The translations under genes and the position numbers were made by a program. A DNA stretch of 64,000 nucleotides from an uncultured virus (IMG/VR IMGVR_UViG_3300022555_000012) (Duplodnaviria; Heunggongvirae; Uroviricota; Caudoviricetes): the IMG/VR virus record IMGVR_UViG_3300022555_000012; one strand, 5' to 3'. The notes beneath the pieces were generated by a model, which worked only from the letters and a program-made list of their open reading frames with translations, was not told where the DNA came from and did not search any database. Below, in pieces: positions 21,708 through 57,977 of the stretch (positions are counted from its first letter, which is position 1; every line of letters begins with the position of its first letter).

Positions 21708-22436
21708 TCACACATTCTGCTTCTTATCCCGATACCGATGATAATTCCCTCCCCTTGCCGTCGGCTGCTGTGTATGACAATTGGGACACAACCATCTTAA
21801 ATTCACCACCCTGTTGTCTGTCTTATCACCATTGACATGATCAACTTCCAACTTCAATTTCTTTCCATTCCAGATTGGTCCCTGAGAACAAAGAACACAA
21901 TAATACTTCGATGGATCTAATTTATAAAAACGACTATTTACGGCAACTCTTCCCTTGTGTCCTTCCCGAAACAATTCTTCGTGTGTATAAGGTCGTCCTC
22001 TACCTTTTCTGAAATGAGAGATGTCTAATCCTAAACGATCTGCGGCTCTGGTCAATGCTGGTCTTTCTATTCCAATACTTCTTGCCGCCTTCAAATAAGT
22101 ATCATTGTCCTTTACAGCCCGAATCACATCTTCATCTGAGAAAAGTTTTTCTCCAGATTTTGAAAAACCACGATGAGTGCAAATTGCACAACTTTTAGAT
22201 CTGTAATCTTTTTCTCTACCACATTTGCAAAGTTGCGGAGCACAATGCTTTCCGTGTTTATATCTCGGATTTGATTCTCCTCTCCCCATAGTGAAATGAG
22301 ACGTGTTAAGTCCAAGTCTTTCCGATATCCTTGAAACAGTCTGACGACTAACCCAAACTCTTCTTTCCACCTCAGAAAAAGACCTGCATTCTGAGACTGC
22401 TTTAACAACTTCCTCGATTTGTTTTTGACTTAACAT
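21708..22436 (-). CDS. HNH homing endonuclease
   Basis: LEVDHVNGDKTDNRVVNLRWLCPNCHTQ. Confidence 0.9.
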   Translation of the reverse strand: MLSQKQIEEVVKAVSECRSFSEVERRVWVSRQTVSRISERLGLNTSHFTMGRGESNPRYKHGKHCAPQLCKCGREKDYRSKSCAICTHRGFSKSGEKLFSDEDVIRAVKDNDTYLKAARSIGIERPALTRAADRLGLDISHFRKGRGRPYTHEELFREGHKGRVAVNSRFYKLDPSKYYCVLCSQGPIWNGKKLKLEVDHVNGDKTDNRVVNLRWLCPNCHTQQPTARGGNYHRYRDKKQNV

Positions 22437-25216: not shown

Positions 25217-25876
25217 CTACTCAACAAGTTCTGTTCCCCAGTAGATTTTGCCGAGAAACGCTTCCCAGGTTCTTGGTGATTTACTCGTGACCTGCATCCT
25301 GACCCTTTCAAGAGGCGACACTCTCAAATCCTTAGCCGTTGGTTGGATAGGCTTCCGAATCAACTTCATCCCAACTTCTGAAGGCAGATGATTTGCCATC
25401 TTGTTGTTGCAAGAAATACAAGATAAGACAATATTTTCCCAAGTCATCTTTCCACCACGAGACTTTGGAATAATATGGCCCATATTCATCTCTTCTGTCT
25501 TTCCCTTGAATCCACAGAACTGACAAATCCCCTTATCCCTCAACCAGATGTTCCGACGACTAAAACTTGGCCTGTGATGAAGATTAATCTTTTGCCCAAA
25601 TCCACGATACTCAGTACAAACAATGACCTCTGGAATCAACAAATACCAATCATTTAAAGGAATAACCTGCGTTTCAGCGATCTTGGAGGTCCTAATTGCG
25701 TCATCCCAATTTACAATCCAACTATCAAAGTCGAAAGTGCAAAATGATGTCGGGTCCAAAAACAAGGCACGACCATTAAACACCTTCTTCACAGCATCAA
25801 ATACTGGAATGATGTTAATTGCCCTTCTCTCTGCATTCAAAACCAACGTCCTTGTTACTGTCATCGCCCTACTCAC
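25217..25876 (-). CDS. HNH endonuclease (McrA/HNH_5-like)
   Basis: FSRRNIWLRD..CQFCG...HIIPKSRGG..TWENIVLSC..CN. Confidence 0.85.
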   Translation of the reverse strand: MSRAMTVTRTLVLNAERRAINIIPVFDAVKKVFNGRALFLDPTSFCTFDFDSWIVNWDDAIRTSKIAETQVIPLNDWYLLIPEVIVCTEYRGFGQKINLHHRPSFSRRNIWLRDKGICQFCGFKGKTEEMNMGHIIPKSRGGKMTWENIVLSCISCNNKMANHLPSEVGMKLIRKPIQPTAKDLRVSPLERVRMQVTSKSPRTWEAFLGKIYWGTELVE

Positions 25877-27228: not shown

Positions 27229-28110
27229 TCATATTTTTACTCCAAAATACCCGCACAAAAATTGCACGGACTCTTCAACTGTCTTATTTTGCGTATCAAC
27301 TGCCAACGCTGACTCACCTGCGGGAATATCATACGGTGCATCTACCCCGGTGAAGTTCTTAATCTTCCCCGCCCGTGCCTTCGCATACATCCCCTTCACA
27401 TCCCTCTTCTCACAAACATTAAGATAGCTCTCAGCATAGACGATCTTCACATTCTTCACGATCCCGCGAACAATGTCCCTCAGTTCCTTCGTCGGAGATA
27501 CAAAACTTGCCAAAACCACAGTCTTGTTACGATTGAACATCTCACAAGTCCAGGCCGCCCGTCTAAGATTCTCTTCCCTGCCACCGTCCACGAACCCGAG
27601 TCCCTGACATAGCCCCGTCCGAAGGTCATCCCCGTCCACCAGGACGACATTGTAACCCGCAGCCATTAACTTGACCCGGAACTCCTTTGCCAAGGTCGTC
27701 TTGCCCGAACATGGTAGCCCAGTGAACCACACCGTTGTCTCCAGCAACTTCAGATACTGTTCCACATCAGGATGCAGATTACCAGCCCCTTGCCCATTCC
27801 TCACCTTTGTCGCAGAGATCTCCTGCACATCCTTGGGAACCTCCATGTAGTTGATATCGTATCCAACTCCACGCCCCACATTGATACTCTCGATATCTGG
27901 GAACAACATCACCTCGACCTTGTCTCCGTATACCCGGTTAATCATCTCACGTCTCTGATCGTAGGTATATGGGTCACTGTCCGAAATCGGAGTGTCCCTA
28001 CAACCGATAATCACCCTCTTGCCGGCATTAACCGCCTGGTCAATGATACATTTGTGACCGTTATGGAACGGCTGAAATCTGCCGACAAACAATGCTGCTC
28101 TTTGTTTCAT
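27229..28110 (-). CDS. cysC: nucleotidyltransferase (HIGH-type) fused to adenylylsulfate kinase
   Basis: GRFQPFHNGH; WFTGLPCSGKTT; DGDDLR; RDVKGMYAKARAGKIKNFTGVDAPY. Confidence 0.88.
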   Translation of the reverse strand: MKQRAALFVGRFQPFHNGHKCIIDQAVNAGKRVIIGCRDTPISDSDPYTYDQRREMINRVYGDKVEVMLFPDIESINVGRGVGYDINYMEVPKDVQEISATKVRNGQGAGNLHPDVEQYLKLLETTVWFTGLPCSGKTTLAKEFRVKLMAAGYNVVLVDGDDLRTGLCQGLGFVDGGREENLRRAAWTCEMFNRNKTVVLASFVSPTKELRDIVRGIVKNVKIVYAESYLNVCEKRDVKGMYAKARAGKIKNFTGVDAPYDIPAGESALAVDTQNKTVEESVQFLCGYFGVKI

Positions 28111-28121
28111 ATGATTCTCCT

Positions 28122-28199
28122 TGGCGTCCCGAGCAGGGTTCGAACCTGCGACCTAAAGTTTAGAAAACTCTTGCTCTATCCAAACTGAGCTACCGGGAC
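28122..28199 (-). tRNA. tRNA-Arg(TCT)
   Basis: AGAGT-TTTCTAA-ACTTT; CCA. Confidence 0.92.
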
Positions 28200-28213
28200 A
28201 AACTTTAATTATC

Positions 28214-28254
28214 TGGCGGGGAAGACAGGAGTCGAACCTGCACCGAACTGTTTA
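28214..28254 (-). pseudogene. 3' half of disrupted tRNA-Arg(CCT)
   Basis: TAAACAGT-TCGGT-GCAGG-TTCGACT-CCTGT-CTTCCCC-GCCA; pairs with the 5' half at 29021-29057. Confidence 0.85.
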
Positions 28255-28256
28255 CT

Positions 28257-28332
28257 TGGTAGGGCTACCCAGAATTGAACTGGGATCATCCGATTAGGAA
28301 TCGGGTACTCTGTCCATTTGAGCTATAGCCCC
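28257..28332 (-). tRNA. tRNA-Arg(CCT), intact replacement copy
   Basis: CCCGA-TTCCTAA-TCGGA; CCA. Confidence 0.92.
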
Positions 28333-28333
28333 A

Positions 28334-28972
28334 TCACTTTAAAAGTTCAAAATTCCCTCTATATTTTTCAACATCAGTTCTCTCTGCATCTCCTATTGGG
28401 TCTCTCAATATCCATATTCTAAGACTGTTCCGCCCGTCAGCCACACTGTGAGGAAGAACATAAACACTGTCATTATCAGCACAATATCCTAAAAAGAAGT
28501 CAACCTCCTCTTTACTGTAAGAATGCCTAACAGCCTTCTTATTTGCTCCTCCCTTTCTGACTGAACAAAATAAGAACTCGTGACATCCACGAGCAACCGG
28601 ATAAATATACTTACATTGACACTTTACAACACTTCCATCTTTTTTCAGAACCAACAAGTCTATCGGAGTGTCCTCCGTCATTGGTTTGAAAACCTTAACT
28701 CCTCCGAACATCAACCTCGCACAAATCATCTGCCTTGCCGCTTCACCGATATCGGTCTTTGACAATCCAGGTCTCTCTTTTGCCACTATCTGTTCTACAA
28801 CCCGACGACCTGGAGCCGAACGCAACACCTTCGACGAATCACACCCTTTAATAATATTCGCCATCGTTGACTTTGATCGTCCATACTTTTTGAGTAACTG
28901 TCCAAGTGTCAGTCCTCTCATTTCTCGATCTTCGACTATCTGCATCCTCACATCTTCTGATATTCTGTTCAT
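28334..28972 (-). CDS. HTH + PD-(D/E)XK homing-type endonuclease
   Basis: GE.....PIDLLV...KCQCK and Y....VDFF motifs; N-terminal HTH. Confidence 0.8.
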   Translation of the reverse strand: MNRISEDVRMQIVEDREMRGLTLGQLLKKYGRSKSTMANIIKGCDSSKVLRSAPGRRVVEQIVAKERPGLSKTDIGEAARQMICARLMFGGVKVFKPMTEDTPIDLLVLKKDGSVVKCQCKYIYPVARGCHEFLFCSVRKGGANKKAVRHSYSKEEVDFFLGYCADNDSVYVLPHSVADGRNSLRIWILRDPIGDAERTDVEKYRGNFELLK

Positions 28973-29020
28973 AAATCATCCTCCGAAAACAGAATATCAA
29001 CTTACTACAAACCAGTCAAC

Positions 29021-29057
29021 TAGGAAACAGCCGCATTGTCCATTGTGCTACATCCCC
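29021..29057 (-). pseudogene. 5' half of disrupted tRNA-Arg(CCT)
   Basis: GGGGATG-TAGCACAATGGACAATGCG-GCTGT-TTCCTA, then non-tRNA sequence. Confidence 0.85.
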
Positions 29058-29250
29058 AAAAATCTACTTCTTCAATCGTCTCTTACCACTCCTCTTGTTA
29101 CAGACCGGACACTTTGCCCCAGGGCCAACAAATGACCGGTCACAATACTCACAATAGAACTTCGTCTTCCGTGGTGCAAGTGCCTTCTCCCTATTCGAGA
29201 GAATGTCCTTATCAACTATCTCTTTCTTACGCATTGGAAATACTTCTTTC

Positions 29251-29326
29251 TGGAGTGCGTTAAGGGAATTGAACCCTCGACCCTGACATTGGAAGTGTCA
29301 CGCTCTACCAACTGAGCTAAACGCAC
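29251..29326 (-). tRNA. tRNA-Gly(TCC)
   Basis: TGACA-CTTCCAA-TGTCA; CCA. Confidence 0.93.
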
Positions 29327-29942
29327 GCTTTTCGATTTAACTAATGGTGAGAATATAAACAAATTATTGCTCATTCTCCAATTCATTGAGTTACTATCGC
29401 ATTCACCTTCATCCTCTGACCCAATACCCATGTCCCTCCCTGGGACTCAGGCCTATTATACTTCTCAATCCCCGTCACCGAAACTTCACACCATATCCTG
29501 CCAACCTTTGAAAGATGTGGAGCCACCGGCTTCAATGTGCAATGCCACCCTTTCCGACGAGCAAAACCTTTTGTCGGATGATCCTCTGCATCCAACCACT
29601 TGCCGAGAGGGATCACCTGCCGGCAATTTATAAACAACGGACCAAGTGTCTGATTCTTCCGAACTCGTAACAGTTTATACGCACGCATCTTTTTCTTTAG
29701 CCCGTAACTCCTGCATCGTCAACTTCGTTTTTCCCTTCTCATGCTTCCGAGGATTCCCACAACACCGGCACGAACAGGAATGAGGTGTATGAGCCATTAT
29801 CCCCACACTCTTCGGCGACAAGATCTTCGACTTGTCATCTAATGAGGACCAAGTCTCTTTCACGAACTTGTGAACCTTTGCCTTTTTACGCTTTTCCGCT
29901 GCCAATCTTGTTCCACGATCGCTCATACTTATTCCCCCTCTT

Positions 29943-31625: not shown

Positions 31626-31988
31626 TTATTTGCCGATGTTTTTAGAAATTTCTGCCCGAATCATGGCCACAACAGCCGGAAGATTCACAAAGACCTCTGA
31701 AGCCGTGAACCGGATCGTCTTAATCCCGTGAGAAGCGAAGACAGCATCCCTGTTCTTATCCGACTCCACCATTGCCTTCTGAAGATGATATTTGCCATCC
31801 GTCTCGATGATAAGTTTGGCCTTTGGACACCAGAAATCAGCGATATACCCATACATCGCCTTCTGACTGTGGATTGCTACCCCGAGTTGATTGTTCTTGA
31901 TCTTTGCCCAGAGTTTCTTCTCAGGCCAAGACTTGTGCCTGGACATATAAGCCGCCCGACGAACTATCCATGGCTTTTTCACCCTCAT
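31626..31988 (-). CDS. DUF559 / Vsr-like endonuclease
   Basis: EKKLW...YIADFWCP..KLIIETDG.YH....D..RD. Confidence 0.85.
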   Translation of the reverse strand: MRVKKPWIVRRAAYMSRHKSWPEKKLWAKIKNNQLGVAIHSQKAMYGYIADFWCPKAKLIIETDGKYHLQKAMVESDKNRDAVFASHGIKTIRFTASEVFVNLPAVVAMIRAEISKNIGK

Positions 31989-41479: not shown

Positions 41480-41555
41480 TGGTGGAGAAGACCGGGATCG
41501 AACCGGCCACCCTCACAATGCCATTGTGATGCTCTACCAGATGAGCTACTTCCCC
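41480..41555 (-). tRNA. tRNA-Ala(GGC)
   Basis: TCACA-ATGGCAT-TGTGA; G3.U70 pair; CCA. Confidence 0.92.
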
Positions 41556-41896
41556 AAAACCTTATCACCCTTCTTCTGATTACACGGATAACACGCGATC
41601 ACAATGTTCTTCGGGTCCAACTCCGGTCCACCCCTTGACTTCGGGATCACATGATCCAATGTCGCCAACTTCCTCATCTGTGCCTTCGTTGCATCATCGG
41701 GAACCTCTGGAACCAGCCCTGTCGCCTTACAGTAGTAACAAACCAAGTCACCTACCTCTGCCATCGCCTTATTCAGATGAGCCTCCCTGAAGGCTACCCA
41801 GGTCGCTCTCTCTTGTTCCTGGAGTTTCCTCACCAACAATACCCTGGCCGCCATTGAATGAGGATGTGGGTCCTCTACCCTTACTCTGTGTCTCAT
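41546..41896 (-). CDS. small HNH endonuclease
   Basis: CYYC...ATLDHVIPKSRGG....NIVIACYPCNQKKG. Confidence 0.85.
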   Translation of the reverse strand: MRHRVRVEDPHPHSMAARVLLVRKLQEQERATWVAFREAHLNKAMAEVGDLVCYYCKATGLVPEVPDDATKAQMRKLATLDHVIPKSRGGPELDPKNIVIACYPCNQKKGDKVLGK

Positions 41897-43654: not shown

Positions 43655-43741
43655 TGGCGTTCCCGAGAGGATTTGAACCTCTATTTGCTTTCGCCCTTCA
43701 GATTCGTAGTCTGACATGCTATCCAATTACACCACGGGAAC
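43655..43741 (-). tRNA. tRNA-Arg(ACG) with extended variable arm
   Basis: TCAGA-CTACGAA-TCTGA; variable region AGGGCGAAAGCAAAT; CCA. Confidence 0.87.
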
Positions 43742-43743
43742 AT

Positions 43744-43799
43744 AACCTGCAACCTTCTGATTCGTAGTCAGAAACTCTATCCAATTGAGCTACGGGTAC
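43744..43799 (-). pseudogene. truncated tRNA-Arg(ACG), broken in the T-loop
   Basis: GTACCCG...TCTGA-CTACGAA-TCAGA-AGGTT-GCAGG-TT, then 2 nt and the intact copy. Confidence 0.85.
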
Positions 43800-43933
43800 A
43801 TTATACGCTTTTGGTGAGATTTAATTCTCACATTGAGAGGGATATCGAAAACTCTGGGGATGGGTCCCGATGCCTTGATAGTGCCCTTCTCTTCCGAACT
43901 TCACTCGGCGGTTTATTTTTCCTACAAAAGCTT

Positions 43934-46160: not shown

Positions 46161-46299
46161 TTTTGAGATGCCGAAAACCGCAAAGGGCGTGTTTCTCTGC
46201 TATCCTACCATTAGATGACCGACCCGAAGGCCGGACGGGATTCGAACCCGCATTTTCAGTTTGGAATTGAAGTATCCCTTTGCTGAAGGTATCTCAAAA
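46161..46299 (-). ncRNA. Y RNA (YrlA)-like RNA: long terminal stem carrying permuted tRNA-like domain C
   Basis: GAGATACC-TTCA-GCAAAGGG-ATACTTC [T-arm; CCGGCC-TTCG-GGTCGG; D-arm] CCCTTTGC-GGTTTTC-GGCATCTC. Confidence 0.7.
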
Positions 46300-47532: not shown

Positions 47533-47599
47533 GCCGATGTCCTACCATTAGACGACCGGCCCTTTCGGTCCGGACGGGATTCGAACCCGCATTTTCAGC
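47533..47599 (-). ncRNA. circularly permuted tRNA-like element D
   Basis: GCTGA-AAAT-GCGGG-TTCGAAT-CCCGT-CCGGACC-GAAA-GGGCCGG-TCGTCTAATGGTAGGACA-TCGGC. Confidence 0.8.
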
Positions 47600-51640: not shown

Positions 51641-52468
51641 CTAAAACTCTTTGACGACTTTAACCGCCGCCTCAATCTCTTCCGCCCATTTCCGATCCGC
51701 CAGATACATATCCCTGGGATCGTCCATCTGCCATCCAGGTTCTCGAAGAAACTGAATCCGGGTATATCTCTTAACCGGGAGAGACTTGACGAAATAGTCA
51801 TGCATATTGTCTGATGCTCCATGCAACATCGCCTCAAGCACCCAGATTGCCGTCCCGACTCTCGTCCCCGGTGTCCCGCCCTCGTCCCCTGACTCTGTCC
51901 CGGTCCCAATCGAAAGTATCTCCACATCCTCAATCTTGGCCCCAAGAACCCTCACAGCCGCCGCAAGAGCCACCATACTCGGATTATTGGCATAGATTCC
52001 CCCATCAGCGTATCCCTTCCAAGGTGGGAAATAAGTCTCCGCTGCCGTTGCACAACGACAAATCTCCCAGGCCGGCCATGACCTATCATCAAAATTCGTC
52101 GATGAAAACACCTTCAATGTCTTCTGGCCAATATCGGCCGCCGTAATAAAGACAGGCTTCTTTGCATCCCCCAGCGTTGTTGGCCCAAAAACTGCCCTCA
52201 GAGCATCATTCAGTCCCGTGTCCGAATATTCCGACTGAAGAAGATTCATCTTCCGATACCAGGGTGCATCAAAAACCTTTCCCATCCACTTGTCAAAGAA
52301 ATCAGGAGAAATAATCTCGGGAGTCCCTAATGCCGCCGCTAAAACTTGCGGAGATCCAATCGATGTCCCTGCAAAGGCATCGAACTTGTCAAAACAGTTC
52401 GCCTCCGTCATTATGGAAGACTGTATCCGACCAAATACTCCACCACCATCAAGTGCCAATATTTTCAT
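51641..52468 (-). CDS. patatin-like phospholipase
   Basis: ILALDGGG, GTSIG and ADGGIYANNP motifs. Confidence 0.9.
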   Translation of the reverse strand: MKILALDGGGVFGRIQSSIMTEANCFDKFDAFAGTSIGSPQVLAAALGTPEIISPDFFDKWMGKVFDAPWYRKMNLLQSEYSDTGLNDALRAVFGPTTLGDAKKPVFITAADIGQKTLKVFSSTNFDDRSWPAWEICRCATAAETYFPPWKGYADGGIYANNPSMVALAAAVRVLGAKIEDVEILSIGTGTESGDEGGTPGTRVGTAIWVLEAMLHGASDNMHDYFVKSLPVKRYTRIQFLREPGWQMDDPRDMYLADRKWAEEIEAAVKVVKEF

Positions 52469-53552
52469 TATCTGTCCTCCAGGCTGCATCAATTTGATCC
52501 GCCGATACCCCAAAACACTGTTCAGCCAACTGAGCAGCAATCTGGGCCATCATTACCGGAGGAACACTCATACCTACACAATATACCCTTTTGTTCCTGG
52601 TGACATCAAGAAAATCATAATCATATGGATATGAACCGATTAGACAAATTTCAACCCAACTCAAATTCCTCATCTCTTCCGGGTGTTTCATGTTCTCCGT
52701 CGCCAAGACTGTCGGACTAACCCGCTCATTACTCAACCGGCACCAACTGAAATAACTGCCACCTGAGACTGTCGAATAAGCATCCCCCGGCCGACACCTG
52801 TGCCAATACGCCCGATCCACCGTATTCGCTGTTGTTCCCACCAAATCCTGTATCGGCAACTTGGCTGTAACATCCCTAAACGGGATTGCCGGCTCATTGA
52901 AACTTAAATGAATCGCCGGCAACTTCAAATCTTTTCTCCTGGCTATAAAGAAGACTCTCTCCCGGACCTGTGGAACTCCCATCGACGCCGCATTCAAAAG
53001 AAACAACTGAGGCTCATATCCAAGCGAAACAAACCGATCCATCACTAATTTACAGTAACCCTTCGCCTTCCCAGTCAGCATTCCTTGGACATTCTCTGCC
53101 ACCGCTATCTTCGGCCTTAACTCTCCAACCAAATCAAGATACTCAAAGAACAAGTCAGAAAGAACCTGCTCTGACTGCCCTTCCCTGAACTTCTTATTCT
53201 TTCCCCAGGCTTTCTCACGATCCCCGACCATCGAAAATGTCGAACAAGGCGGACTGCCGTCAAGCACATCCAAGTTATACAACTCCTTGGGTATGTCCTT
53301 CCTGGTCTTAAATGTCTGAATCGGTTCAAGGAAAGCGTGTTTTGGATGATGATTGGCTTGATAGAATGTCATCATCTCCTTATCAATTTCGTTGCATCCC
53401 AACATATCAAAGCCTGCCATCTTGTATCCGAAGGATGATCCTCCTCCACACGCAAAGGTAGAAAAGACAGTATGACCGTGTTTCTTTACTCTCTCCAGGT
53501 CAGTTCTTTTCCAGCAATACGGGAATCTGTGATCTTGAATCATTTTATCCAT
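52449..53552 (-). CDS. DNA (cytosine-5) methyltransferase, paralog 3
   Basis: FACGGG, GSPPC, ENV, Q.RERVFF and GMSVPP motifs. Confidence 0.92.
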   Translation of the reverse strand: MDKMIQDHRFPYCWKRTDLERVKKHGHTVFSTFACGGGSSFGYKMAGFDMLGCNEIDKEMMTFYQANHHPKHAFLEPIQTFKTRKDIPKELYNLDVLDGSPPCSTFSMVGDREKAWGKNKKFREGQSEQVLSDLFFEYLDLVGELRPKIAVAENVQGMLTGKAKGYCKLVMDRFVSLGYEPQLFLLNAASMGVPQVRERVFFIARRKDLKLPAIHLSFNEPAIPFRDVTAKLPIQDLVGTTANTVDRAYWHRCRPGDAYSTVSGGSYFSWCRLSNERVSPTVLATENMKHPEEMRNLSWVEICLIGSYPYDYDFLDVTRNKRVYCVGMSVPPVMMAQIAAQLAEQCFGVSADQIDAAWRTDNENIGT

Positions 53553-54619
53553 GCCTCATCTATCTGTGCTTTTGGCACTCCAAACCATTGTTCGGCAATC
53601 TGAGCCGCAATCTGGGCTGTCATCACCGGAGGAACACTCATGCCGATGCAATATAGCTTAGAATTACGATTCTTACCAAGGAAATCATAGTCGTAAGGAT
53701 ATGCACCGCACATACATGCCTCAACCCAACTAATCCCCCTCATCTCAGTTGGATGAGTATGCTGAGTGCTACTCGTCAATGTGAAGGCCGGCTTGTCTGC
53801 ACTTAATCTCTTGTAATTGAAGAAGTTTCCTCCCGAAGCCTCCTCAAAAGACTGTCCCTGTCTTGTTCTATGCCAGAATGCCCGAACAAATCCTCCCACT
53901 TCTGTCCCTTCCAGATCCTGAATAGGCAAATTATCACATACCTCTCCAAATGAAATCGGTTTTTCGGCGAAGTTGAATTTCAAACTCTTCCACTTCAGAT
54001 CCTTCCTTCGGGCAATGAAGAAAACCCTCTCCCTCGCCTGGGGAACCCCAAGGGATGCCGCATTCATCAAGAACAACTGAACATCATACCCAATATCATC
54101 ATATTTTTGCCGGATTAGGTCACAATATCCCCTTGCCTTTCCGATCAACATTCCCTTCACATTTTCAGCAACAGACACCTTCGGCCTTAACTTGTTCACC
54201 AAATCCAAATAGTCAAAGAACAAGTCTGATAGAACCTGCTCAGCCTGTCCTTCACGGAACTTCTTTTCCTTGCCCCAGGCTTCCTCTCGTGAGCCCGCCA
54301 TAGAGAAAGTAGAGCAGGGAGGACTACCATCAAGCACATCCAGATTAAACAGATCCTGGGGTAAATCAGCCCTATTCTTGAAGGTCTGAATAGGCTCGTG
54401 GTAAATGTGTTTGGGATGATGGTTCGCCAAATACAGTTCAACCATCTCCTTATCTATTTCATTGAATCCTATGACATCGAAGCCTGCCATCTTGTAACCG
54501 AAAGATGATCCTCCTCCACACGCAAAAGTTGAAAAGACGTTGTGACCATGCTTATGAACCCGGTCTAAATCTGTTTTCTTCCAACAGTAAGGAAATCTGT
54601 GATCTTGACTCATTGCCAT
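53540..54619 (-). CDS. DNA (cytosine-5) methyltransferase, paralog 2
   Basis: Same C5-MTase motifs. Confidence 0.92.
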   Translation of the reverse strand: MAMSQDHRFPYCWKKTDLDRVHKHGHNVFSTFACGGGSSFGYKMAGFDVIGFNEIDKEMVELYLANHHPKHIYHEPIQTFKNRADLPQDLFNLDVLDGSPPCSTFSMAGSREEAWGKEKKFREGQAEQVLSDLFFDYLDLVNKLRPKVSVAENVKGMLIGKARGYCDLIRQKYDDIGYDVQLFLMNAASLGVPQARERVFFIARRKDLKWKSLKFNFAEKPISFGEVCDNLPIQDLEGTEVGGFVRAFWHRTRQGQSFEEASGGNFFNYKRLSADKPAFTLTSSTQHTHPTEMRGISWVEACMCGAYPYDYDFLGKNRNSKLYCIGMSVPPVMTAQIAAQIAEQWFGVPKAQIDEAWIK

Positions 54620-55680
54620 GCCTCGTCTATCTGTTCTTTGGGAACCTTAAACCATTGTTCAGCTATTTGTGCTGCCAAATTCGCCGTCATCACCGGGGGA
54701 ACACTCATACCGATACAATACACCTTCTTTTTAGGAGAATGCTCCAGAAAATCATAATCATGAGGATATGATCCAATCATACACACTTCCACCCAACTAA
54801 TCTTTCTCTTCTCTGTCGGATGCGTTAATCCCCAGTTCGTCGTAAGTGTCAATGCCGGCTCATTTGCCGACAATCTCTTATTCCCGAATCCCATGCCTCC
54901 AGATACATCCGAATATGATCCACCCTGTCTCGTCTTCGACCAGAAAACATTCATCAACATCCCGCCCTCTGTCCCGGCAAGATCCTGAAATGGCAGATTA
55001 TCCATCACCGTCTGAAAAGTTATCTGCTTCTCATTACAGTCAATCTTTATATTCGTCCATCCTAAATCTTTTCTCCTGGCTATAAAGAAGACCCTCTCTC
55101 TCCTTTGTGGAACTCCCATTGTTGCCCCATTCACCAGAAACAACTGAACATCATATCCAATCTCGTTATACTTCCTCCGAATGAGGTCACAATAACCCTT
55201 CGCCTTTCCAACCAGAAGCCCTTTAACATTCTCTGCAACAGATACTTTCGGCTTCAACTTGTTCACCAAATCCAAATAGTCAAAGAACAAGTCTGATAGA
55301 ACCTGCTCGGCCTGTCCTTCACGGAACTTCTTATTCTTTCCCCATCCTGATTCGCGTTTTCCAGATGTTGAGAATGTCGAACACGGTGGACTGCCGTCAA
55401 GCACATCCAAATTATACAACTCCTTGGGCAAATCGGGTCTATTCTTGAATGTCTGAATCGCCTCATGATAGGTGTAAATCGGATTGTGGTTTGCCAAGTA
55501 TAACCCCACCATCTCCTTATCTATCTCGTTAAACCCTATGACATTGAAGCCTGACATCTTATAGCCGAAGGATGATCCTCCACCACAAGCAAAAGTTGAA
55601 AAGACAGTATGACCGTGTTTCTTTACCCGAACCAAGTCTGTCTTCTTCCAGCAATAGGGGAATCTGTGATCTTTAACCAC
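54610..55680 (-). CDS. DNA (cytosine-5) methyltransferase, paralog 1
   Basis: Same C5-MTase motifs. Confidence 0.92.
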   Translation of the reverse strand: MVKDHRFPYCWKKTDLVRVKKHGHTVFSTFACGGGSSFGYKMSGFNVIGFNEIDKEMVGLYLANHNPIYTYHEAIQTFKNRPDLPKELYNLDVLDGSPPCSTFSTSGKRESGWGKNKKFREGQAEQVLSDLFFDYLDLVNKLKPKVSVAENVKGLLVGKAKGYCDLIRRKYNEIGYDVQLFLVNGATMGVPQRRERVFFIARRKDLGWTNIKIDCNEKQITFQTVMDNLPFQDLAGTEGGMLMNVFWSKTRQGGSYSDVSGGMGFGNKRLSANEPALTLTTNWGLTHPTEKRKISWVEVCMIGSYPHDYDFLEHSPKKKVYCIGMSVPPVMTANLAAQIAEQWFKVPKEQIDEAWQ

Positions 55681-56266
55681 CCAACCTCTCCAAATCTACC
55701 TGATCGTTTTCGTCAGATGACCAGACAAACCCGCAACACGGGCACTTGGCATCACAATCTTTCACCAAATCAGCGATATCAATCTCCTTGTTGGTGAAAT
55801 TCTTATCCTCTCCTGGGACAAATCTCTTTTCGAGTTTGCTCGTTAAATCATCCATCCTCAATTTACCAAATAAGTCTGCATCAGCCCCCTGAACGGCATG
55901 CAACAACTCCAGAACAGATGGGGTAAAATCACCCTCAATCTCGGGATTATTCAAAGTGAGATTTGCCGACATCTCCTCATTCTCTGGAATATGAGCCACA
56001 ACCATCGGTGCTTCCGTCAATCCCTGGCTAATCAATACCTTGAATCTCTGGTGCCCCCCGACAATGTGTCCCGTTACCTCATTCCAGACAATCGGCTCGA
56101 CATACCCGAATCGATCCAAAGAGGCTTTAAGTCCTCTCATTGCCACATCATCAATGATCCTGGGATTTTCCGGCATCGGAGTCACAGCACCAAACTTAAT
56201 CACTCGAACTTCTATTTCACCGAGATTAGACATTGGATGCTCCATTCCTTTGTACGATTTCCCCAT
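55673..56266 (-). CDS. ParB/Srx N-terminal domain protein with C-terminal CPxC
   Basis: NPR.I...L..S..RFG.VEPIVWN...IVGGHQR. Confidence 0.85.
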   Translation of the reverse strand: MGKSYKGMEHPMSNLGEIEVRVIKFGAVTPMPENPRIIDDVAMRGLKASLDRFGYVEPIVWNEVTGHIVGGHQRFKVLISQGLTEAPMVVAHIPENEEMSANLTLNNPEIEGDFTPSVLELLHAVQGADADLFGKLRMDDLTSKLEKRFVPGEDKNFTNKEIDIADLVKDCDAKCPCCGFVWSSDENDQVDLERLGG

Positions 56267-56786
56267 TCGCCTTCTTCCACACGCTTCGGCATCTTGGACA
56301 TCTCATTCCCTCTTTGGTGCCTTCTGTTCCACCCTTACCCTTGCCACTACCCTTCTTCCCCTCTCCTTCTCCTGGCTGATCAAACTTATACCGTCCAAGA
56401 TAGTTCAACATATCAGCCAGACCGACCGTCTTGAAATCATCGGCCATCGTCTTCTCGGATTCTTGAAGTAACCCAACAACACTCTTCGTGAATGTTCCCC
56501 TGGTAGCCGGATTGTTCATCGTAATATTCAAGGCAACTTCTTCGTTGTCATCCAAATCAACGACTACGACATCTGTCTCCTCGACACCCTTGCTCTGAAG
56601 CACCTTAAACCGCTGGTGTCCCCCTACAATGTTTCCTGAACGCTTGTTCCAAATAATCGGAACCAGAACACCGTAACGATCAATTGAACCACCTAACCCA
56701 TCAATGGCCTCCTGCCGAATTTCCCTTGGGTTATATGCCGCCGGATGTAACTCCGATAATTTCTTCCGTTCCATTATCCAATTCAT
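56226..56786 (-). CDS. ParB/Srx N-terminal domain protein
   Basis: YNPR...PIIWNKRSGNIVGGHQR; CPRC. Confidence 0.85.
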   Translation of the reverse strand: MNWIMERKKLSELHPAAYNPREIRQEAIDGLGGSIDRYGVLVPIIWNKRSGNIVGGHQRFKVLQSKGVEETDVVVVDLDDNEEVALNITMNNPATRGTFTKSVVGLLQESEKTMADDFKTVGLADMLNYLGRYKFDQPGEGEGKKGSGKGKGGTEGTKEGMRCPRCRSVWKKANGEIVQRNGASNV

Positions 56787-57325
56787 GTTTTCCCCTTTAC
56801 GACCAAAATATCTTTACCATCCACCATCCACTTGTTACCGCAACAAGGACATTCCGTATCCCAGTCATCACTCTTCTTTTCACCCTCCATTACCCCGTCT
56901 CCACGATTCTGTTCAATGTTCTTTTCAAGGGATGCCTTCAGCTCATCCATTCGAACGGCCTGGAACAGATCCGGGGCAGAACCCTCGACCTGACTGATCA
57001 ACTCCATGATCGGCTCATCGAACTCTCCCTCGATCTTGACATTGTTCATCGTCAAACTCGCCGCCAACTCATCCTCGGGCGATAAATTGACAACAACCAT
57101 TGGAACTTCCGTTACCCCCTGTTGCATCAATATGGCATATCTCTGATGACCACTGACAATATGCTTCGTCTTCTCGTTCCAAACGATCAACTCCACCAGA
57201 CCGAAACGACCAATAGACGCCTTCAGACCTTTTAAGGCCGACGGAGATATAATCCGGGGATTATTGCTCTGAGGGATTGCGTCACTCAATTTTACAACCC
57301 GTGTTTCCCATTTATTTATGAGCAT
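56783..57325 (-). CDS. ParB/Srx N-terminal domain protein
   Basis: NNPR...IVWN...IVSGHQR; CPCC. Confidence 0.85.
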   Translation of the reverse strand: MLINKWETRVVKLSDAIPQSNNPRIISPSALKGLKASIGRFGLVELIVWNEKTKHIVSGHQRYAILMQQGVTEVPMVVVNLSPEDELAASLTMNNVKIEGEFDEPIMELISQVEGSAPDLFQAVRMDELKASLEKNIEQNRGDGVMEGEKKSDDWDTECPCCGNKWMVDGKDILVVKGKT

Positions 57326-57977
57326 TTTTCTTCCCCTTTAATTGTTTCCCTGTTCCAACCACTGCATTAAAAACGACCTCATTGTCTGTCACCTTCCATT
57401 GACTACTGCACTTGGGGCAACAAATCACCGCCTGGGTCTTCTCTGTGACCTCTGGCGGGTCTTCTTCCCCAGATCCTGCTCCTGGCACGGGTCCCTGTTG
57501 TCCTCCCTCGCCTGGCTCGACCGGGGCCTTCCCCGTAGTCTTTGGCTCTCGCTTCTTCTTGTCGAACCCTCGACCCTTCAGGTAATCATAAAGGTCCAGT
57601 AGTCCGATTTCCCGGAATTTACTCCCGAGTTGGGCTTCAGACATCCGAAGCTGTTCCACAACGTCCTTCGTGAAGTCACCTCGAACTTCCCGATTATTCA
57701 TTGTGATATTCAAGGCAACCTCTTCGTTGTCATCCAGATCAACAACGACGACATCTGTTTCGATCTCCCCCATCTCCAGGAGTTGCTTATATCTCTGATG
57801 CCCACCAACAATGTTTCCTGAACGCTTATTCCAAACGATATGAGACAACATTCCAAATTTGGCAATGGAATTCCCTAAACCCTCAAATGCCTGGTCAGAC
57901 ATCTTCCTGGGATTGTATTCAGCAGGGGTCAACTCATCCAACTTCATCTTCCTGACTTCTACTTTTACTTCACTCAT
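57312..57977 (-). CDS. ParB/Srx N-terminal domain protein
   Basis: YNPR...IVWNKRSGNIVGGHQR; CPKC. Confidence 0.85.
   Translation of the reverse strand: MSEVKVEVRKMKLDELTPAEYNPRKMSDQAFEGLGNSIAKFGMLSHIVWNKRSGNIVGGHQRYKQLLEMGEIETDVVVVDLDDNEEVALNITMNNREVRGDFTKDVVEQLRMSEAQLGSKFREIGLLDLYDYLKGRGFDKKKREPKTTGKAPVEPGEGGQQGPVPGAGSGEEDPPEVTEKTQAVICCPKCSSQWKVTDNEVVFNAVVGTGKQLKGKKNAHK

What the first reader, a model, noticed from the sequence alone, without database searches (positions are those of the whole stretch)
28214..29057. Endonuclease + replacement-tRNA cassette inserted in the anticodon loop of the same tRNA (Arg-CCT)
Seen, in minus-strand order: the 5' half of a tRNA-Arg(CCT) ending GCTGT-TTCCTA; a sigma70-like promoter (TTGACT-N17-TATTCT); a PD-(D/E)XK endonuclease; a complete but sequence-diverged tRNA-Arg(CCT); then the matching 3' half starting TAAACAGT. 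The halves rejoin into a 76-nt cloverleaf with TA present at both junctions. No room exists for a group I intron core, and no integrase is present. Known: free-standing homing endonucleases occur in phage tRNA clusters (e.g. T4 SegB). Inference: this is a splicing-free homing unit that destroys its target tRNA and complements it with a recoded, cleavage-resistant isoacceptor.
Basis: partly seen in the sequence, partly recalled or inferred. Interest (0 to 1): 0.9.

Follow-up and report, generated by a model that had tools for sequence, protein, structure and literature searches.

The report
Nuclease-plus-spare-tRNA cassette splitting phage tRNA-Arg
A selfish DNA-cutting-enzyme gene that carries its own working arginine tRNA sits in the anticodon loop of this large freshwater phage's older arginine tRNA gene. 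It breaks that gene in two without an intron, which shows a second way for such elements to invade an essential gene harmlessly.

Summary
On the minus strand lie a tRNA-Arg(CCT) 5' half (29057-29021) and a promoter-like site. Then come a 212-aa I-Ssp6803I-type PD-(D/E)XK endonuclease gene (28972-28334), an intact tRNA-Arg(CCT) (28332-28257) and the matching 3' half (28252-28214).

Joined in a script, the halves give a 76-nt cloverleaf. No group I intron core or integrase was found.

The layout is not unique. In 24 of 30 distinct related loci the endonuclease gene abuts a tRNA, nearly always tRNA-Arg, including in four bacterial genomes. Nine of 27 other metagenome loci carry orphan pieces of a broken outer tRNA around the gene. 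Five have both pieces, with different, self-matching stems and various deletions.

Best reading (about 0.65): an intron-less homing cassette (promoter, nuclease, spare tRNA) that cuts tRNA-Arg genes in the anticodon region and replaces the gene it destroys. The outer halves are a dead scar.

Not shown: cleavage specificity, resistance of the carried tRNA, and any empty allele (none found).

It is a new variant of known kinds (intron-encoded I-Ssp6803I, free-standing phage homing nucleases).

In passing: close relatives carry a widespread, mostly unannotated tRNA-Arg with a circularly permuted core.

The parts
29021..29057 (-). Outer (old) tRNA-Arg(CCT), 5' half: acceptor 5' strand, D arm, anticodon stem 5' strand, loop up to TTCCTA
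   Evidence: Sequence. Joined in a script with 28252-28214 it is called tRNA-Arg(cct), 76 nt, by ARAGORN.
28991..29019 (-). Promoter-like site TTGACT-17-TATTCT (TG before the -10), starting 1-2 nt after the broken loop
   Evidence: 9 of 12 matches; not significant alone. A TTGAC-type hexamer stands 0-2 nt after the broken loop in L013, L014 (TTGCAG), L016, L019 and L021 as well.
28979..28984 (-). GGAGGA ribosome-binding site, 6 nt before the ATG
   Evidence: Sequence.
28334..28972 (-). Homing-endonuclease gene, 212 aa: N-terminal three-helix HTH-like domain plus I-Ssp6803I-type PD-(D/E)XK nuclease domain
   Evidence: PF11645 E 7.9e-19. Profile against PDB 2OST E 1.3e-7, with D...QxK aligned. 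AlphaFold2 pLDDT 89.3. Foldseek top hit 2OST, E 1.5e-10, TM 0.78. D105, Q119 and K121 are invariant in 46 sequences.
28257..28332 (-). Inner (carried) intact tRNA-Arg(CCT), starting 1 nt after the ORF's stop codon
   Evidence: ARAGORN; Rfam tRNA 61.0 bits.
28253..28254 (-). TA at the 3' junction, repeated at the 5' junction (29022-29021): 2-nt microhomology or target duplication
   Evidence: Sequence.
28214..28252 (-). Outer (old) tRNA-Arg(CCT), 3' half: loop AA, anticodon stem 3' strand, variable loop, T arm, acceptor 3' strand, G, CCA
   Evidence: The orphan T arm GCAGG/TTCGACT/CCTGT was found by motif scan.

Best explanation
This is an intron-less homing cassette. It has its own promoter-like site, an I-Ssp6803I-type PD-(D/E)XK homing endonuclease gene, and a complete tRNA-Arg(CCT) fused to the end of that gene.

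Inferred mechanism: the enzyme cuts tRNA-Arg genes in or near the anticodon-loop DNA, as its solved relative does for tRNA-fMet genes. Break repair copies the cassette into the cut. The resident tRNA gene is left as two dead halves, and the carried tRNA supplies the lost function, so no splicing is needed.

Shown: the anatomy, the enzyme family, the conserved nuclease-tRNA-Arg linkage in phages and bacteria, the recurrence of broken outer tRNAs around the cassette, and the lack of a ribozyme.

Inferred: the target site, the resistance of the carried tRNA, continuing mobility, and that the outer halves are not rejoined.
For: (1) Enzyme family. PF11645. Profile hit to 2OST with the catalytic D...QxK aligned. 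Fold match to I-Ssp6803I, TM 0.78. Catalytic residues are invariant in 46 homologues. 26 of 26 locus ORFs have no internal stop. I-Ssp6803I recognises a 23-bp pseudo-palindromic target (PMC3384342, passages read). [quoted passage not shown]

(2) Linkage. 24 of 30 distinct assessable loci have a tool-called tRNA within -30..+60 nt of the stop codon: 19 ARAGORN tRNA-Arg, 1 Trp, 3 odd Arg-type tRNAs and 1 cut by a contig end. The stop codon often lies inside the tRNA. All 4 bacterial MAG loci have tRNA-Arg(CCT) within 60 nt.

(3) Recurrence. Besides the window, 5 distinct loci have both outer pieces around the nuclease gene (L016, L021, L027, L024, L019). Three have a 5' piece only (L013, L014, L018) and one a 3' piece only (L012). 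That is 9 of 27 distinct other metagenome loci.

(4) The outer pieces of different loci have different acceptor and T stems, yet each pair matches its own partner. This fits repeated invasion of different resident tRNA-Arg genes.

(5) Decay of outer genes:
- 1-nt deletion in the acceptor 3' strand (L016).
- Missing anticodon region (L021, L019).
- 5' piece cut at the D loop (L024, L018).
- 1-nt insertion in the loop (L013).
This speaks against a spliced, working outer tRNA.

(6) No group I intron match in the window region or in 29 loci.

(7) The nested form is fixed and identical in contigs of 4 runs from 4 studies.
Against: - No HEG-free (empty) allele of this tRNA was found. There were 0 exact matches of the 3' half in IMG/VR, no GenBank phage match to either half, and no contig joining 29021 to 28252 in 4 runs (contigs drop rare variants).
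- Junction positions differ between loci: after the anticodon in the window and L016, before it in L027, with deletions elsewhere. The 3' ends of the insert also differ. Strict site-specific homing of one fixed cassette is therefore not what is seen.
- The HEG tree is unresolved among phage rows (13 of 23 inner branches open), so the number of independent insertions cannot be counted.
- The window's outer tRNA is almost perfect. Its one U.U mismatch also occurs with the same acceptor sequence in a working-looking tRNA of another phage (L054). The window itself therefore shows no decay.
- Old and new tRNA have the same anticodon loop, so resistance would have to rest on the stems.
- 15 of 24 adjacent-tRNA loci show no outer pieces at all.
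Confidence: 0.65

Rival explanations
1. One-off scar. A free-standing nuclease-tRNA unit was pasted once, long ago, into a tRNA-Arg gene by illegitimate recombination. It has since been inherited vertically, and the nuclease no longer homes (domesticated or idle). The other loci are descendants of that event.
For: - The HEG tree does not separate nested from non-nested rows.
- The window, L013 and L014 share the same 5' junction form: loop ...TA, 1-3 nt, then a TTGAC-type hexamer.
- No empty allele was found.
Against: - HEG proteins of the nested loci are only 50-57% identical to the window's. Yet outer halves keep fully matching acceptor and T stems with different sequences in each locus. Neutral relics of one old event should not do that.
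- Neighbouring tRNAs differ in every locus.
- Nuclease catalytic residues are invariant.
Confidence: 0.17
2. The outer tRNA is still made. The 768-nt insert is removed from the transcript, or the two halves are made separately and joined (split-tRNA or protein-dependent splicing). On this reading the phage has two working tRNA-Arg(CCU).
For: - The window's outer halves are nearly perfect and end in CCA.
- Excision of the inner tRNA by RNase P and 3' processing would free both halves (inference).
Against: - No group I core.
- Folding of a mini-precursor and of the full 844-nt precursor gave no bulge-helix-bulge. Only 5 outer 5'-half bases paired with the 3' half.
- No RNA ligase or splicing endonuclease family was found among the 84 of 105 window ORFs scanned, nor in the 3 scanned.
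- In 8 of 9 other loci the outer gene shows a listed defect and could not give a tRNA: deleted anticodon, truncated half, a missing half, or an indel. The ninth, L027, shows only a shifted junction and one stem mismatch.
Confidence: 0.06
3. Recombination debris of a fast-evolving tRNA array. Broken tRNA pieces arise from tRNA-tRNA recombination, and the nuclease gene merely sits there without having caused the break.
For: - The window has another truncated tRNA-Arg(ACG) abutting a full copy without any nuclease gene between them (43800-43655).
- Several other nuclease genes lie between tRNAs.
Against: - The break lies in the anticodon arm in 6 of the 9 loci (L016, L021, L027, L019, L013, L014), as in the window, which is the target region of the enzyme's solved relative.
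- Outer pieces flank exactly the promoter-nuclease-tRNA unit.
- The same family sits beside tRNA-Arg(CCT) in bacterial chromosomes that have no tRNA array.
Confidence: 0.08

Closest known systems
I-Ssp6803I, the PD-(D/E)XK homing endonuclease encoded in the group I intron of the Synechocystis tRNA-fMet gene (PDB 2OST; PMC3384342 passages read; Bonocora and Shub 2001 seen only as a title in a reference list)
   Same: Same protein family and fold and same catalytic D...QxK motif. The gene sits in the anticodon loop of a tRNA gene. By analogy the target is the anticodon stem-loop DNA, which is naturally pseudo-palindromic.
   Different: - No intron ribozyme surrounds it, and the interrupted tRNA cannot be restored by self-splicing.
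- It carries a whole spare tRNA instead.
- It has an extra N-terminal HTH-like domain of about 70 aa.
- The associated tRNA is Arg, not fMet.
- It is found in phages and Myxococcota, not cyanobacteria.
Free-standing phage homing endonucleases and 'intron-less homing' in tRNA regions: T4/T6 SegB (GIY-YIG), frequently next to tRNAs (PMC13096335, abstract and section 10 read); T4 mobE (PMC2790892, abstract in a listing only)
   Same: A nuclease gene with its own expression signals sits among phage tRNA genes, next to a gene it presumably targets. It is expected to spread by break repair with co-conversion of neighbours.
   Different: - Different nuclease fold.
- Here the cassette lies inside the target gene and destroys it.
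- It is fused to one particular tRNA type (Arg). SegB showed no isotype preference (PMC13096335, section 10).
Genes split by homing-endonuclease insertion without an intron (Aeromonas phage Aeh1 nrdA split by mobE; recalled, not read here) and 'fractured genes' with split inteins (PMC2677866, abstract in a listing only)
   Same: A nuclease gene interrupts an essential gene without an intron.
   Different: There the two gene pieces still work together as protein fragments. Here function is supplied by a carried duplicate and the pieces decay.
Integrative elements that insert into tRNA genes and restore them with a carried copy of the 3' end (established knowledge, recalled)
   Same: The element compensates for the damage it does to a tRNA gene by carrying replacement tRNA sequence.
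   Different: - No integrase was found (84 of 105 window ORFs scanned, 3 more).
- The whole tRNA is carried, not just the part beyond the crossover.
- The junctions lie in the anticodon loop with only 2 nt of identity.

Membership tests
PF11645 / I-Ssp6803I-type PD-(D/E)XK homing endonucleases | Sequence match to the family profile above the curated cut-off | tested here: met
   68.5 bits against 26.1, E 7.9e-19, residues 73-179.
PF11645 / I-Ssp6803I-type PD-(D/E)XK homing endonucleases | Restriction-endonuclease-like fold resembling I-Ssp6803I | tested here: met
   AlphaFold2 pLDDT 89.3. The four top Foldseek hits are chains of 2OST; best E 1.5e-10, TM (target) 0.78.
PF11645 / I-Ssp6803I-type PD-(D/E)XK homing endonucleases | Catalytic acidic residue and (Q/E)xK motif | tested here: met
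   D105, Q119 and K121 are invariant in 46 sequences and align to D...QVK of 2OST.
PF11645 / I-Ssp6803I-type PD-(D/E)XK homing endonucleases | Site-specific cleavage of the nuclease-free tRNA gene in the anticodon region | not testable with these tools
   Needs an enzyme assay.
Group I intron in a tRNA anticodon loop | Ribozyme core (P3-P9) around or beside the ORF | tested here: not met
   No Intron_gpI match at E <= 10 in 27800-29500. Only 48 + 1 + 2-4 nt of the insert lie outside the ORF and the tRNA. No match in 29 related loci.
Free-standing homing endonuclease (intron-less homing) | Nuclease gene with its own expression signals, conserved next to one target gene across genomes | tested here: met
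   Promoter-like site and RBS. tRNA adjacency in 24 of 30 distinct loci, 19 of them ARAGORN-called Arg.
Free-standing homing endonuclease (intron-less homing) | Existence of nuclease-free alleles of the same site in related genomes | tested here: not met
   None found. The searches were narrow (exact match, GenBank phages, contigs of 4 runs), so absence is weak.
Free-standing homing endonuclease (intron-less homing) | Biased inheritance in mixed infection; the carried allele resists cleavage | not testable with these tools
   Needs experiments.
Archaeal-type spliced or split tRNA | Bulge-helix-bulge at the exon-intron junctions, or complementary leader and trailer | tested here: inconclusive
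   MFE folds of a mini-precursor and of the full precursor showed no such motif. No dedicated BHB search was run.
Integrase-type element inserted in a tRNA gene | Integrase gene and a direct repeat of the tRNA 3' part | tested here: not met
   No integrase or recombinase Pfam family among the 84 of 105 window ORFs scanned, nor in the 3 scanned. The repeat at the junctions is 2 nt.

The most novel reading that the evidence does not exclude
'Replacement homing' may be a general third strategy beside introns and inteins. Selfish nuclease cassettes invade an essential gene and stay harmless by carrying a spare copy of it.

Here it is used by an I-Ssp6803I-type nuclease whose closest solved relative uses a self-splicing intron at the same tRNA region. 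Unchecked earlier notes of this scan report the same layout with unrelated HNH nucleases on Arg, Lys, Leu, Gln and Thr tRNAs.

Repeated cycles of cut-and-replace would drive rapid turnover of phage tRNA genes. They may have favoured carried tRNAs with altered architecture, such as the core-permuted tRNA-Arg found next to this nuclease's closest relatives.
Probability: 0.4. Interest if true: 0.8.

Novelty: new variant of a known kind. Interest (0 to 1): 0.65.

Why it matters
Homing endonucleases are thought to survive inside essential genes only when hidden in self-splicing introns or inteins, or else to sit beside genes. This locus and its relatives show a member of an intron-associated nuclease family inside a tRNA gene with no intron. 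The damage is made good by a tRNA that travels with the nuclease.

If confirmed, three things would follow:
- It would explain why broken tRNA halves and duplicate isoacceptors are common in large phage tRNA arrays.
- It would add a mechanism for tRNA gene turnover between phages.
- It would offer compact nucleases with long tRNA-gene targets for study.

The finding also points to tRNA genes that standard annotation misses.

Tried and rejected
- Own genome: none is held.
- GenBank phages, blastn of 27800-29500: only generic tRNA matches, no relative.
- IMG/VR searches:
  - The exact 3' half gave 0 matches.
  - The HEG protein gave only 9 distant loci at 25-29% identity, of which 1 lies in a tRNA array.
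  - The HEG alignment gave none.
  - The neighbouring 293-aa protein gave none.
- ARAGORN's intron option did not find the split gene, so a join-and-scan script was used.
- First version of that scan was noisy, because 3' parts of intact tRNAs combine with random 5' sequence. It was redone with limits.
- Sequencing runs: no RNA holder is listed. Contigs of 4 runs show only the nested form. The listed joints 28153 to 29300/29302 carry 18-19 foreign letters and short sides of 20-21 nt, so they are cross-matches of other organisms' tRNAs.
- Orphan T arms after the inner tRNA in L032 and L034 were first taken for outer relics. They were rejected because Rfam calls them Y RNA-like (YrlA, 64.9 and 46.1 bits).
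- The orphan T arm 83 nt after the inner tRNA of L031 is left unexplained.
- Counting independent insertions on the HEG tree: the tree is unresolved.
- The EMBO J 2007 paper on I-Ssp6803I is not held.
- Literature searches for this layout and for the odd tRNA shape found no description. Subscription journals are largely not searched.

Full report
**1. What is there**

Read on the minus strand, the window holds these elements in order:
- tRNA-Gly(tcc), then a 56-aa zinc-ribbon-like ORF.
- The first 37 nt of a tRNA (29057-29021): acceptor strand, D arm, anticodon-stem strand, loop TTCCTA.
- A promoter-like TTGACT-17-TATTCT (29019-28991, 9 of 12 matches, TG before the -10). The region has 4 such sites against 2.5 +/- 1.4 in shuffles.
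- GGAGGA, then a 212-aa ORF (28972-28334).
- One base later, an intact tRNA-Arg(cct) (28332-28257; ARAGORN, Rfam 61.0 bits).
- AG, TA, then 39 nt that are the missing 3' part of the first tRNA (28252-28214), ending in CCA.
- tRNA-Arg(tct).

Joined in a script, the two outer pieces are called a 76-nt tRNA-Arg(cct) by ARAGORN. That tRNA has one U.U pair in the acceptor stem and a 3-bp D stem.

The join-and-scan procedure gave no hit in 12 other loci of 35,360 joins each, against a single cluster of 131 at this locus. The match of the halves is therefore not chance.

The nested form is found without a single difference in contigs of four runs from four freshwater studies (one run may be the source) and in a JGI contig (L010).

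The phage is large. The nuclease protein is on record on 19 contigs, the longest 342 kb. The window has 27 ARAGORN tRNAs, several HNH genes, three C5 methylases and a ribonucleotide reductase. No GenBank phage is close.

**2. The protein**

- It matches Pfam PF11645 (PD-(D/E)XK endonuclease) at E 7.9e-19.
- A profile of 46 homologues hits PDB 2OST at E 1.3e-7, with the D...QxK motif aligned.
- The AlphaFold2 model (pLDDT 89.3) has the four chains of 2OST as its best Foldseek matches. 2OST is titled 'a bacterial homing endonuclease: I-Ssp6803I'. The best match has E 1.5e-10 and TM 0.78.
- D105, Q119 and K121 are invariant.
- The first ~70 residues form three helices with a weak HTH match. I-Ssp6803I lacks this part.

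A review (PMC3384342, passages read) describes I-Ssp6803I as a tetramer that recognises a 23-bp pseudo-palindromic target. [quoted passage not shown] That it sits in a group I intron of that tRNA gene is in that title. The position of tRNA group I introns relative to the anticodon is recalled, not read.

**3. No intron, no integrase**

Rfam gave no group I intron match in 27800-29500 at E <= 10, nor in 29 related loci. The insert has only about 50 nt outside the ORF and the inner tRNA.

No integrase, recombinase, RNA ligase or splicing-endonuclease family appeared among the 84 of 105 window ORFs of 70 aa or more scanned. Three more near the locus were scanned. The 18 plus-strand ORFs were not scanned.

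MFE folds showed no bulge-helix-bulge.

**4. Relatives**

The protein has 93 homologues at E <= 0.001. A metagenome scan returned 33 loci and a genome scan returned 4 (Myxococcota and one 'Proteobacteria' MAG).

After merging identical copies and leaving out two loci with cut ORFs (L038, L040), 30 loci could be assessed. In 24 of them a tool-called tRNA begins or ends within -30..+60 nt of the stop codon:
- 19 are ARAGORN tRNA-Arg (cct, ccg, gcg).
- 1 is tRNA-Trp.
- 3 are odd Arg-type tRNAs seen by Rfam only.
- 1 is cut by the contig end.

The other 6:
- L042 adds one more via Rfam.
- L012 and L019 have a tRNA 3' piece directly after the stop.
- L017 has an odd tRNA overlapping the ORF end (seen by eye only).
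- L037 has tRNA-Glu 75 nt away.
- L020 has nothing.

In phage-type loci the tRNA follows the ORF on the same strand. The stop codon often lies in the tRNA's first ten bases.

In the bacterial clade (support 100/97) the tRNA-Arg(CCT) is convergent in 3 of the 4 genome loci and in both metagenome loci of that clade, L022 and L029. So the nuclease and tRNA-Arg form an old, tight unit.

**5. Broken outer tRNAs recur**

Besides the window, both outer pieces flank the unit in five loci:
- L016 (= L015).
- L021 (inner tRNA Arg-gcg).
- L027.
- L024 (5' piece cut at the D loop).
- L019 (no inner tRNA; the 3' piece begins at the variable loop).

A 5' piece alone is present in L013, L014 and L018, and a 3' piece alone in L012. 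That is 9 of 27 distinct other metagenome loci.

Each pair of pieces has its own acceptor and T-stem sequences, which match each other. The flanking tRNAs differ in every locus.

Defects are frequent:
- One G missing from the acceptor 3' strand in L016.
- The anticodon and part of the stem missing in L021 and L019.
- An extra base in the loop in L013.
- Two C-to-T changes in the anticodon in L014.

The break lies after the anticodon in the window and L016, and before it in L027.

A TTGAC-type hexamer starts 0-2 nt after the broken loop in the window, L013, L014, L016, L019 and L021. This supports a real promoter at the left end of the cassette.

L016's outer tRNA is 88% identical to the nuclease-adjacent tRNA of L041 and 79-80% identical to the carried tRNAs of L018, L024 and L034. 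It is only 70% identical to its own inner tRNA. The carried tRNA of one cassette thus looks like the victim of another.

**6. Reading**

The simplest account is a homing cassette made of a promoter, a nuclease gene and a spare tRNA. Steps:
- The family's solved member cuts tRNA anticodon-region DNA (shown for that member only).
- This enzyme is always beside tRNA-Arg (shown).
- It is found inside broken tRNA-Arg genes whose pieces differ from phage to phage yet fit each other (shown).
- The pieces decay (shown in other loci, not in the window).
- From this I infer repeated cutting of resident tRNA-Arg genes and insertion of the cassette, with the carried tRNA replacing the lost function.

Loci with only a 5' piece fit one-sided repair, in which the 3' side of the break recombines with the carried tRNA (inference). 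The variable junctions and insert ends mean that some events were illegitimate joins, or that deletions followed.

**7. Against**

- No empty allele was found.
- There are no RNA data.
- The tree is unresolved.
- The window's own outer tRNA shows no clear decay. Its U.U pair comes with an acceptor sequence that is also used by an intact-looking tRNA in another phage (L054).
- Old and new tRNA are 64% identical and share the 7-nt loop. Resistance of the new one is unproven.

**8. Known and new**

Known:
- I-Ssp6803I in a tRNA intron.
- Free-standing phage nucleases near tRNAs. For SegB the association with tRNAs is significant, and no isotype preference was seen (PMC13096335, section 10 read).
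- Nuclease insertions that split protein genes (recalled).

New here: a member of the intron-borne family without an intron, inside the tRNA gene, with a whole replacement tRNA.

Two literature searches found no description.

Earlier unchecked notes of this scan report the same layout with HNH nucleases in other phages. They agree with this reading but are not independent evidence.

**9. Noticed in passing: a core-permuted tRNA-Arg**

The nuclease's closest relatives (L011, L013, L014; L017 by eye) carry a tRNA that ARAGORN misses and Rfam scores at 33-37 bits.

Its order of parts is:
- acceptor strand, TA, N, a 3-nt strand;
- the anticodon arm;
- a 3-8-nt linker, then the complementary 3-nt strand;
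- a D-loop-like TAATTGGAGTAT;
- the T arm and the acceptor strand.

A 22-letter motif found 35 IMG/VR loci, one of them spurious. On 29 distinct sequences:
- 97.4% of cells pair.
- All 3 pairs of the new long-range helix change on both sides.
- 0 of 500 shuffles reach the observed score.

All anticodons are Arg (TCT, CCT, CCG).

The layout equals a circular permutation of tRNA positions 10-48, starting at 22 (inference from the pairing).

blastn finds the element in 272 GenBank phage records, including phi92, where it lies unannotated inside the tRNA array. Of the 30 records listed, 21 show no feature under the match, 4 show 'tRNA-OTHER', 1 shows a hypothetical protein, and 4 records have no annotation at all.

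Four literature searches found no description.

Noticed in passing
L011:3644-3717, L013:3633-3707, L014:745-819, L017 about 1240-1320; IMG/VR loci L047-L081; phage phi92 FR775895.2 51875-51953 (L082:1501-1579): A tRNA-Arg (anticodons TCT, CCT, CCG) with a rearranged core. A 3-bp helix encloses the anticodon arm, and the D-loop-like TAATTGGAGTAT follows it. This equals a circular permutation of positions 10-48. ARAGORN misses it and Rfam tRNA scores it at 33-37 bits. Covariation supports all four helices (29 sequences, 97.4% paired, 0 of 500 shuffles). It occurs in 272 GenBank phage records. Of the 30 listed, 21 have no feature under the match, 4 'tRNA-OTHER', 1 a hypothetical protein, and 4 records carry no annotation. 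Four literature searches found no description.
   Followed up: partly
window 43655-43800, minus strand: A tRNA-Arg(acg) truncated in its T loop (first ~56 nt) directly abuts a complete 87-nt tRNA-Arg(acg) with an unusually long variable region. This is a second 'old remnant plus new copy' in the same array, without a nuclease gene between them.
   Followed up: no
window 46178-46282 and 47539-47591, minus strand: Two paralogous Y RNA-like (YrlA) tRNA mimics: T arm, acceptor-like stem closed by a tetraloop, D arm. Rfam scores are 34.6 and 25.8 bits, below the gathering score of 69. Similar elements follow the carried tRNA in L032 (64.9 bits) and L034 (46.1 bits).
   Followed up: partly
window 41546-41896 (minus) and tRNA-Ala(ggc) 41480-41555: An HNH endonuclease ORF overlaps the first 10 nt of the next tRNA, so its stop codon lies inside the tRNA, as in many PD-(D/E)XK loci. 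Further nuclease genes in or near the array: HNH at 25217-25876, HNH_3 at 21708-22436, DUF559 (Vsr-like) at 31626-31988.
   Followed up: no
L043-L046 (Myxococcota and 'Proteobacteria' MAGs), L022, L029: Bacterial chromosomal relatives of the nuclease (44-50% identity) abut tRNA-Arg(CCT), mostly in convergent orientation 0-20 nt from its 3' end. No broken tRNA pieces were noticed. A Guanidine-III riboswitch lies near one of them (L046:1833-1894).
   Followed up: partly
L042:3441-3538: Next to a distant nuclease homologue (32% identity) lies a tRNA with about 25 extra nt in the anticodon loop. Rfam scores it at 61.1 bits and ARAGORN misses it. It may be a short intron in an AT-rich 78-kb contig.
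   Followed up: no
L032:1916-2260: A bacterial class A RNase P RNA (291.7 bits) lies on the same 3.5-kb contig as the nuclease, a tRNA array and Y RNA-like elements.
   Followed up: no
window 52449-55680 and 55673-57977, minus strand: Three tandem C5 cytosine DNA methylase genes are followed by four tandem ParB_N-domain genes.
   Followed up: no
window 27229-28110, minus strand: A 293-aa fusion of a cytidylyltransferase-like domain and an adenylylsulphate (APS) kinase domain sits right after tRNA-Arg(tct).
   Followed up: no
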